Made by a program: the position numbers and the translations under genes. Positions 53,194-53,352 of a DNA stretch of 64,000 nt are shown one piece after another. The stretch lies in assembly GCF_964355755.1 (NCBI RefSeq), contig NC_092671.1:17112001-17176000 (forward strand), read 5' to 3'. The first letter of the stretch is position 1. Every line of letters starts with the position of its first letter. Source of the DNA: Antedon mediterranea. Taxonomy: Eukaryota; Animalia; Echinodermata. The notes beneath the pieces were generated by a model. That model did not search any database. It was not told the DNA's origin and saw only the letters and a program-made list of their open reading frames with translations.

Positions 53194-53352
53194 TAAATCC
53201 AAAGGCAAATTACTGAAAAAATGACAATGCTGTGGGCTGGATCTCCATGGAGATACAAAAAAAAGGCGAAAAGCTAAATCAAAACGATAAGTAAACCAGC
53301 CAGAAAAGTTAGCAGAGCTTTCGGGCAACACTAACCCTTCATCAGTGCAAGT
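53194..53352 (-). mobile_element. Hammerhead-bearing short dispersed element, near-complete copy inside (TA)n
   Basis: Colinear with 58151-58320 (opposite strand), with one short internal deletion; TA repeats on both sides. Confidence 0.8.
53309..53352 (-). ncRNA. Minimal type I hammerhead ribozyme motif (most intact copy)
   Basis: Minus strand ACUUGCA-CUGAUGA-A-GGGU-UAGUGUU-GCCC-GAAA-GC-UC-UGCUAA: both catalytic boxes, 4-bp stem II, palindromic AGCU helix III, stem I GCA/UGC. Confidence 0.8.

What the first reader, a model, noticed from the sequence alone, without database searches (positions are those of the whole stretch)
53194..53352. Hammerhead-ribozyme-bearing ~170-bp dispersed element family (Penelope/retrozyme-like) with covarying stem II
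Seen: at least 8 copies or fragments (16780-18810, 20111-20232, 20289-20400, 22195-22350, 49672-49716, 53194-53352, 54350-54562, 58151-58320). One end reads UUGCA-CUGAUGA-A-[4-bp stem II, 7-nt loop]-GAAA-GC-UC-UGC(U)AA. Stem II varies while staying paired: GGGC/GCCC (58k), GGGU/GCCC (53k, wobble), GGGU/ACCC (22k), GAGC/GCUC (18.8k). Known: CUGANGA, GAAA and UH form the hammerhead core, and minimal type I hammerheads with a tiny palindromic helix III are described from Penelope-like retroelements and are thought to cleave as dimers. Inference: a non-coding, self-cleaving, TA-associated element mobilised in trans, possibly not yet described in this lineage.
Basis: partly seen in the sequence, partly recalled or inferred. 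Interest (0 to 1): 0.85.

Follow-up and report, generated by a model that had tools for sequence, protein, structure and literature searches.

The report
Penelope retrotransposon end carrying hammerhead ribozyme
This 170-base repeat is the cut-short tail end of a Penelope-type jumping gene, present over a thousand times in an animal genome; it carries the tiny hammerhead motif usual for such elements, which is predicted, not shown, to cut RNA, so it is mostly ordinary, except that many copies start at almost the same spot.

Summary
The repeat and its hammerhead motif are real: 8 copies or fragments in the window and at least 1,058 in the genome. It is not a stand-alone non-coding element. Longer copies run 5' into a reverse transcriptase + GIY-YIG reading frame ending 227 nt before the ribozyme, and one locus reads repeat-ORF-repeat. 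It is therefore the 3' terminal repeat (pLTR) of a Penelope-like element with Neptune-type motifs. Short copies have a fixed 3' end at (TA)n, ragged 5' ends and 10-20-bp target duplications, as expected from target-primed reverse transcription. The hammerhead fits the published minimal PLE type. The claimed stem II covariation is weak, and three of the four quoted copies are damaged elsewhere in the motif. Tandem retrozyme arrays are nearly absent (5 close dimers). One unexplained feature: 24-31 of 86 copies start within 13 nt at the ribozyme's 5' edge, possibly marking the transcription start. Cleavage and expression are untested. The scan's notes held no earlier report of this sequence; one note covers a different hammerhead repeat in this genome. 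New member of a known kind.

The parts
53194..53352 (-). 5'-truncated copy of the PLE terminal repeat; starts 38 nt before the predicted cut (the commonest start point), ends at GGATT (53200-53196) followed by TA; lies in sense orientation in intron 1 of a KCNH channel gene
53309..53350 (-). minimal type I hammerhead: helix I 5' strand 53350-53346, CUGAUGA 53345-53339, unpaired A, stem II GGGU/GCCC with 7-nt loop, GAAA 53322-53319, palindromic AGCU, predicted cut between 53315 and 53314
   Evidence: features as in PMC4209133
53352..53797 (.). (TA)223 microsatellite on the 5' side of the copy, the inferred target (likely expanded)
58149..58320 (+). second near-complete repeat copy between TA runs; core 58159-58185 with the common GGGC/GCCC stem; helix I 3' strand mutated (UGAUAA)
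16780..18853 (-). copy reaching 86 nt 5' of the cut site, whose inner 49 bp have expanded into a 39-unit satellite (16804-18714); hammerhead 18774-18800 has a compensated stem II (GAGC/GCUC) but no AGCU palindrome
20101..20232 (-). old copy, about 70% identical, decayed core
20289..20400 (-). 3' fragment without the hammerhead
22183..22351 (+). old copy (74-77% identical), stem II GGGU/ACCC, core broken; no sister closer than 78% among 40 scored of 1,185 candidates
49672..49717 (-). last 45 bp of the repeat
54350..54562 (+). 3' fragment without the hammerhead, with a 48-bp unit repeated 3.1 times (same segment as the 49-bp satellite)

Best explanation
The 170-bp repeat is the 3' terminal repeat of a 3.2-kb Penelope-like retrotransposon that encodes a reverse transcriptase and a GIY-YIG endonuclease, and the short copies are likely truncated products of target-primed reverse transcription into TA-rich DNA. 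Shown: the repeat follows the RT-EN frame; the unit is repeat-TATATATA-short leader-ATG-ORF-3'UTR-repeat; copies share one 3' end, differ at the 5' end, and carry target duplications. Inferred from known PLE biology: the endonuclease nicks at TATA, the RT starts on the RNA at the GGAUU-UAUAUA point (inside the RNA where repeat joins leader, or at the downstream repeat) and copies backwards until it stops. Inferred: the excess of copies starting 29-41 nt before the cut site most likely marks the RNA's 5' end, a transcription start at the TCACT motif (about 45%; short circular or tandem templates about 20%; an RT or repair artefact about 35%). Inferred: the hammerhead is too minimal to cut alone; it would cut after GCUC only as a dimer through AGCU pairing or with help from the element's protein, mostly in repeat-ORF-repeat transcripts, and is a passenger in the solo copies.
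For: GIY-YIG frame directly upstream in two extended copies. 24 of 30 loci picked with RT-EN linker DNA carry the repeat in the same orientation about 0.5-0.6 kb downstream. A 650-aa open frame has RVT_1 (E 2.9e-9) and GIY-YIG (E 1.5e-4, just under the Pfam cut-off), with DKG, YIDD, CX3CxxC linker and CCHH motifs; stop to CUGAUGA is 227 nt. L061 = repeat(250 bp)-ORF-repeat, hammerheads 3,163 nt apart; its ATG aligns with the first residue of a 910-aa homologue. 7 of 11 loci that begin at the leader have the same GGATT-TATATATA-TTTTCTAC joint. 4,141 homologous proteins at E<=1e-20. Target duplications of 10-20 bp in 10 of 24 short copies against 0.12 for mismatched flanks. Exact genome counts: 3' 24-mer 1,058, hammerhead 5' 20-mer 1,012, next 20-mer upstream 381. 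5' ends: 31 of 86 in 13 nt, 24 after removing 7 doubtful rows, 2.8 expected. Short and long copies share alleles (24 vs 19 copies). Internal initiation at the pLTR-ORF joint, length set by the RNA 5' end, and protein-assisted cleavage were shown for another PLE (PMC11167929); internal promoter in the pLTR (PMC2377424); TCACT noted as Inr-like in a rotifer pLTR (PMC3846280).
Against: No unbroken ORF in 7 long copies examined, so a currently active master was not seen. Folding does not favour the ribozyme: z -0.9 to +0.5 for monomers; in a natural dimer stem II has probability about 0.1, helix I 0.01, and the dimer fold costs 10 kcal/mol. Covariation is weak. Against the simple start-site reading: 0 of 7 upstream repeats of ORF-bearing copies end in the pile-up and 5 of 7 run further 5' (to -109...-564), which needs a template switch, read-through or a circle; an extra G at the junction (cap copy) is not enriched (6 of 31 vs 9 of 52); a second hammerhead family shows no such pile-up (30 of 116 loci). 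The 13-nt window was chosen after seeing the data, and all 97 sampled matches are from one contig. Only 1 of 164 copies ends at the cut site.
Confidence: 0.9

Rival explanations
1. Most short copies come from a non-autonomous, SINE-like 170-nt RNA transcribed from solo repeats and mobilised in trans by the PLE protein.
For: 5'-end pile-up; 2.7-fold drop in exact counts across 18 nt; upstream repeats of ORF-bearing copies do not share the pile-up; pLTRs suffice for mobilisation in trans in a rotifer (PMC3846280 passages).
Against: No allele separates 24 short from 19 long copies at six sites (few informative sites, so low power); starts are spread over 13 nt rather than at one master position; internal priming on full-length RNA gives the same product.
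Confidence: 0.25
2. The element replicates through a hammerhead-cut, re-ligated circular RNA (repeat to repeat), copied for more than one round; occasional small circles are nascent retrozymes.
For: Invariant repeat-leader joint with upstream repeats of any length up to -564; L248 holds about 1.6 turns of a 313-nt deletion unit with the same novel joint twice, between target duplications; model proposed in PMC4209133.
Against: L248 is one locus (2 matches); 5 close dimers only; read-through of tandems or template switching explains the same structures; the hammerhead was dispensable for insertion in vitro in another PLE (PMC11167929); a circle does not predict the pile-up.
Confidence: 0.25
3. 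It is a tandem-array non-LTR retrozyme family.
For: Size and type I hammerhead fall in the published range (bioRxiv 10.64898/2026.07.22.740005; PMC7229834).
Against: Copies are dispersed monomers; 5 exact head-to-tail joints with <=24 nt spacer genome-wide; the only long array in the window is a 49-bp unit without the ribozyme; the hammerhead is the minimal PLE type.
Confidence: 0.05
4. The hammerhead match is a non-functional look-alike, or the repeat is a DNA transposon end or MITE.
For: No Rfam hit; weak folding and covariation.
Against: Position in a PLE terminal repeat and all four diagnostic features of PLE minimal hammerheads; at least five other families with the same core but different stems in the fetched loci, 0 in the reversed control, one about 230 nt behind another GIY-YIG-like frame; ragged 5' ends and long variable target duplications.
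Confidence: 0.07

Closest known systems
EN+ Penelope-like elements, Neptune type (Craig et al. 2021, PMC8557442; passages read)
   Same: Single RT + C-terminal GIY-YIG ORF, DKG, GxKF, CX2-5CxxC linker, CCHH, partial tandems forming pLTRs, inverted truncated partners, heavy 5' truncation, microsatellite targets, hammerhead near the 3' end.
   Different: New family (best protein match 67%, unnamed; best named ones are sea cucumber proteins at 56-66%). Neptune versus Nematis was judged on motifs only. A sharp 5'-end pile-up was not found described in my searches.
Minimal hammerheads of metazoan PLEs (Cervera and de la Pena 2014, PMC4209133; results and discussion read)
   Same: Unpaired base between 9 and 10.1, G10.1-C11.1, palindromic helix III region, short helix I, thousands of mostly single motifs attributed to truncated PLEs.
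   Different: Stem II is 4 bp rather than the 7-8 bp of the Schistosoma families; this family is homogeneous, like the young D. virilis one.
Poseidon element of Anolis (Frangieh et al. 2024, PMC11167929; main text read)
   Same: AT-rich target, 3' ends set by initiation inside the RNA near the pLTR-ORF joint, hammerhead in the pLTR.
   Different: There the ORF starts inside the hammerhead and priming is not homologous to the target; here the ATG lies about 180 nt past the cut site and the RNA has a UA run that could pair with the target.
Animal non-LTR retrozymes (PMC7229834 passages; bioRxiv 10.64898/2026.07.22.740005 abstract to discussion)
   Same: Short hammerhead-bearing units related to PLE pLTRs; monomers, rare dimers.
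   Different: Defined by tandem units with complete hammerheads and circular RNAs; here almost all copies are single truncation products still continuous with the parent.

Membership tests
EN+ Penelope-like element | RT and C-terminal GIY-YIG in one frame | tested here: met
   650-aa open frame, RVT_1 and GIY-YIG; full-length homologues of about 910 aa
EN+ Penelope-like element | pLTR-ORF-pLTR partial tandem, with inverted truncated partners | tested here: met
   L061; inverted pairs in L064, L066
EN+ Penelope-like element | fixed 3' end, 5' truncation, target duplication | tested here: met
EN+ Penelope-like element | hammerhead in the pLTR | tested here: met
   both repeats of L061
EN+ Penelope-like element | optional 30-40-bp tail | tested here: inconclusive
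   4 of 97 copies continue into the leader, but two run into the ORF and two reach the edge of the fetched stretch
EN+ Penelope-like element | an intact, active master copy | tested here: inconclusive
   0 of 7 long copies unbroken; search not exhaustive
Neptune clade | CX2-5CxxC linker plus CCHH in the endonuclease, DKG and GxKF | tested here: met
   against definitions in PMC8557442
Neptune clade | RT phylogeny with named reference elements | not tested
   no named PLE reference sequences were on hand
minimal PLE hammerhead | CUGANGA, GAAA, UH core; extra base 9/10.1; G10.1-C11.1; palindromic 15.1-16.1 | tested here: met
minimal PLE hammerhead | compensatory changes in the helices | tested here: inconclusive
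   4 double changes, 6/500 shuffles, 14 unpaired stem II cells
minimal PLE hammerhead | self-cleavage as dimer or with protein | not testable with these tools
   no raw RNA reads listed
non-LTR retrozyme | tandem arrays of units with complete hammerheads | tested here: not met
   5 close dimers genome-wide against about 1,000 copies; only spacers up to 24 nt were searched
non-LTR retrozyme | abundant circular RNA | not testable with these tools
DNA transposon / MITE | two fixed ends with terminal inverted repeats and a short fixed target duplication | tested here: not met
   ragged 5' ends, duplications of 10-20 bp; the two ends are not complementary in the sequence

The most novel reading that the evidence does not exclude
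The genome is a fossil record of the Penelope replication cycle: transcription starts at the ribozyme's 5' edge, the RT primes inside the RNA on a UA run that pairs with nicked (TA)n and runs off the RNA end, turning the terminal repeat into a self-amplifying 170-nt SINE-like unit; the hammerhead removes the capped first 38 nt and, in tandem transcripts, releases circles that are copied for more than one turn (L248, L003), so that this family shows how retrozymes arise from PLEs.
Probability: 0.25. Interest if true: 0.6.

Novelty: new member of a known kind. Interest (0 to 1): 0.3.

Why it matters
As an annotation it is routine: hammerheads in PLE terminal repeats and thousands of solo motifs from truncated copies are published. 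Its value is as test material. What PLE hammerheads do and whether PLEs use circular templates are stated as open in PMC8557442 and PMC11167929. A young family with over 1,000 copies, a sharp pile-up of 5' ends and a more-than-unit deletion derivative gives exact predictions (start at -41...-38, cut after GCUC, 3,163-nt and 313-nt circles) that one RACE and one RT-PCR experiment can test.

Tried and rejected
Rfam scan: no hammerhead model matched. Folding of monomers and a natural dimer gave no thermodynamic support; a hairpin explanation of the pile-up was dropped. Cap-derived extra G: not enriched. Pile-up of 5' or 3' ends at the cut site: not seen (6 of 86 5' ends in -5...+10; 1 of 164 3' ends); the small deletions there lie in a short direct repeat. 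Separate short-copy subfamily: not seen. L248 as a family: single locus. Older subfamily around the 22k copy: none closer than 78%. Pile-up as a general rule: absent in a second family. Expression: no RNA holder listed; four runs were contigs only and say nothing on starts, ends or level. No solved structure matched the protein. Density: 9 matches in 5 of 40 evenly spread 10-kb stretches and none in the next 100 kb, so the window is richer than average. Lunse et al. (PMC5785218) was not held and was seen only as cited in PMC6765202 passages. No supplements were read; repeat libraries or supplementary tables could already list this family.

Full report
Observation. The window is G000:C2:17112001-17176000 of a 354-Mb animal assembly. 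The 53194-53352 copy carries, on the minus strand, helix I UUGCA, CUGAUGA, an unpaired A, stem II GGGU/GCCC with a 7-nt loop, GAAA, GC, UC and UGCUAA. A strict descriptor gives 3 window hits and none in 100 shuffles; the core pattern gives 1,249 genome matches against 5 for the control. Rfam reports no hammerhead.

Covariation. The common stem is GGGC/GCCC. The 53k variant is a one-sided change; the 22k copy has a broken core; the 18.8k copy has lost the AGCU palindrome; the 58k copy has a helix I mismatch. Among 159 distinct copies, stem II mutates at 3.1-4.9% per site against 2.4-3.3% downstream (part of that sample was picked on the core, so core rates are biased low). In 35 of 45 distinct rows (10 with indels left out) there are 4 double changes against 0.8 expected (6 of 500 shuffles) and 14 unpaired stem II cells. 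This is a slight excess over neutral decay, not an independent proof of structure. Folding adds no support.

What it belongs to. Two of the first 30 loci extended 5' into a GIY-YIG frame. Searching with the DNA upstream of that frame, 24 of 30 loci carried the repeat in the same orientation at the expected distance. L062 has a 650-aa open frame with RVT_1 and GIY-YIG and the DKG, YIDD, CX3CxxC and CCHH motifs; the stop lies 227 nt before CUGAUGA. L061 reads 250-bp repeat, TATATATA, short leader, ATG, ORF, repeat, (TA)n, with hammerheads 3,163 nt apart; the ATG matches residue 1 of a 910-aa homologue. Homologues number 4,141 at E<=1e-20, best 67%. By the definitions in PMC8557442 (passages) this is an EN+ Penelope-like element with Neptune-type motifs; the clade was not tested by a tree. 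None of 7 long copies examined has an unbroken ORF; long copies are 85-99.7% alike, median 95% (403 pairs).

How the short copies arise. An exact 24-mer at the 3' end, including TATA, occurs 1,058 times (control 0). I examined 97 of these matches, all from the first contig; 11 were duplicates. All share the 3' end by selection; 5' ends run from beyond -500 to +108 relative to the predicted cut. Ten of 24 short copies have 10-20-bp target duplications with informative letters, against 0.12 in mismatched controls. This is the signature of target-primed reverse transcription and excludes a DNA transposon. The window copies lie in introns of a KCNH potassium channel gene on the minus strand (first exon 7.7 kb beyond the window); the 53k copy is in sense orientation, which is compatible with an inactive monomer (inference).

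The unexplained part. 31 of 86 5' ends fall in -41...-29, 24 after removing 7 doubtful rows, where 2.8 are expected from the rate further 3' (window chosen after seeing the data). Genome-wide exact counts agree: 1,012 for the 20-mer at -35...-16 and 381 for the 20-mer at -53...-34, though upstream sequence variants could lower the second. The mode, -38, is the A of TCACT, where the 53k copy also starts. In an Anolis PLE, RT starts inside the RNA near the pLTR-ORF joint, product length follows the RNA 5' end, and the hammerhead cuts only with the protein and is not needed for insertion (PMC11167929, main text); D. virilis Penelope has an internal promoter (PMC2377424, abstract and promoter section). 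Run-off at a transcription start is therefore my preferred reading. Against it: 0 of 7 upstream repeats of ORF-bearing copies end there and 5 of 7 go further; no excess of cap-type G; a second family has no pile-up. Short and long copies share alleles, so a separate SINE lineage is not seen.

Circles and retrozymes. Seven of 11 loci beginning at the leader share one repeat-leader joint, and L248 holds about 1.6 turns of a 313-nt deletion unit with the same joint twice. Both fit the circular-template model of PMC4209133 but also read-through or template switching. Head-to-tail dimers with <=24-nt spacers number 5, so the family fails the tandem criterion of non-LTR retrozymes (bioRxiv 10.64898/2026.07.22.740005, abstract to discussion; PMC7229834 passages). 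One of 164 copies ends 2 nt past the cut and is joined to another family's repeat, an anecdote.

Verdict. Identity 0.9; cleavage untested; new member of a known kind; interest 0.3, resting mainly on the 5'-end pile-up, which searches did not show described.

Noticed in passing
window 2550-36180 (minus) and L330:7673 (G000:C2, 7.7 kb past the window): Exons of a KCNH (Eag/Erg/Elk family) potassium channel gene; window 36.2-64 kb is part of its first intron.
   Followed up: partly
window 16804-18714 and 54390-54540: The same inner 48-49-bp segment of the repeat has tandemly expanded twice (39 and 3 units); public contigs also show a 48-base back-jump there. Satellite birth from a PLE terminal repeat, without the ribozyme.
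   Followed up: partly
L248 (G000:C1:27027180-27028190): About 1.6 turns of a 313-nt deletion derivative with two hammerheads and the same ORF-to-3'UTR joint twice; single locus.
   Followed up: yes
L003:2512-2620: The -34...+2 fragment of this family is fused to the hammerhead end of another family, the joint lying 2 nt past the predicted cut.
   Followed up: partly
L014, L025, L055, L061:7040-7075, L154, L257, L294-L323: At least five further hammerhead-core families with different stem II, several TA-flanked; one has 116 exact copies, another lies about 230 nt behind a different GIY-YIG-like frame.
   Followed up: partly
flanks of L003, L004, L008, L019, L022, L029: A frequent TA-flanked repeat with tRNA-like A and B box sequences (by eye) sits beside many copies, sometimes as an inverted pair.
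   Followed up: no
window 45438-45552 (minus): Degenerate 5S rRNA-like sequence, 45.5 bits.
   Followed up: no
window 46465-48203 (minus): Broken LINE-type reverse transcriptase frames, unrelated to the PLE.
   Followed up: no
window 5540-5925, 27018-27343, 60550-61033: Other tandem arrays: 14 bp x 28, 71 bp x 4.6, and a GAT-rich minisatellite.
   Followed up: no
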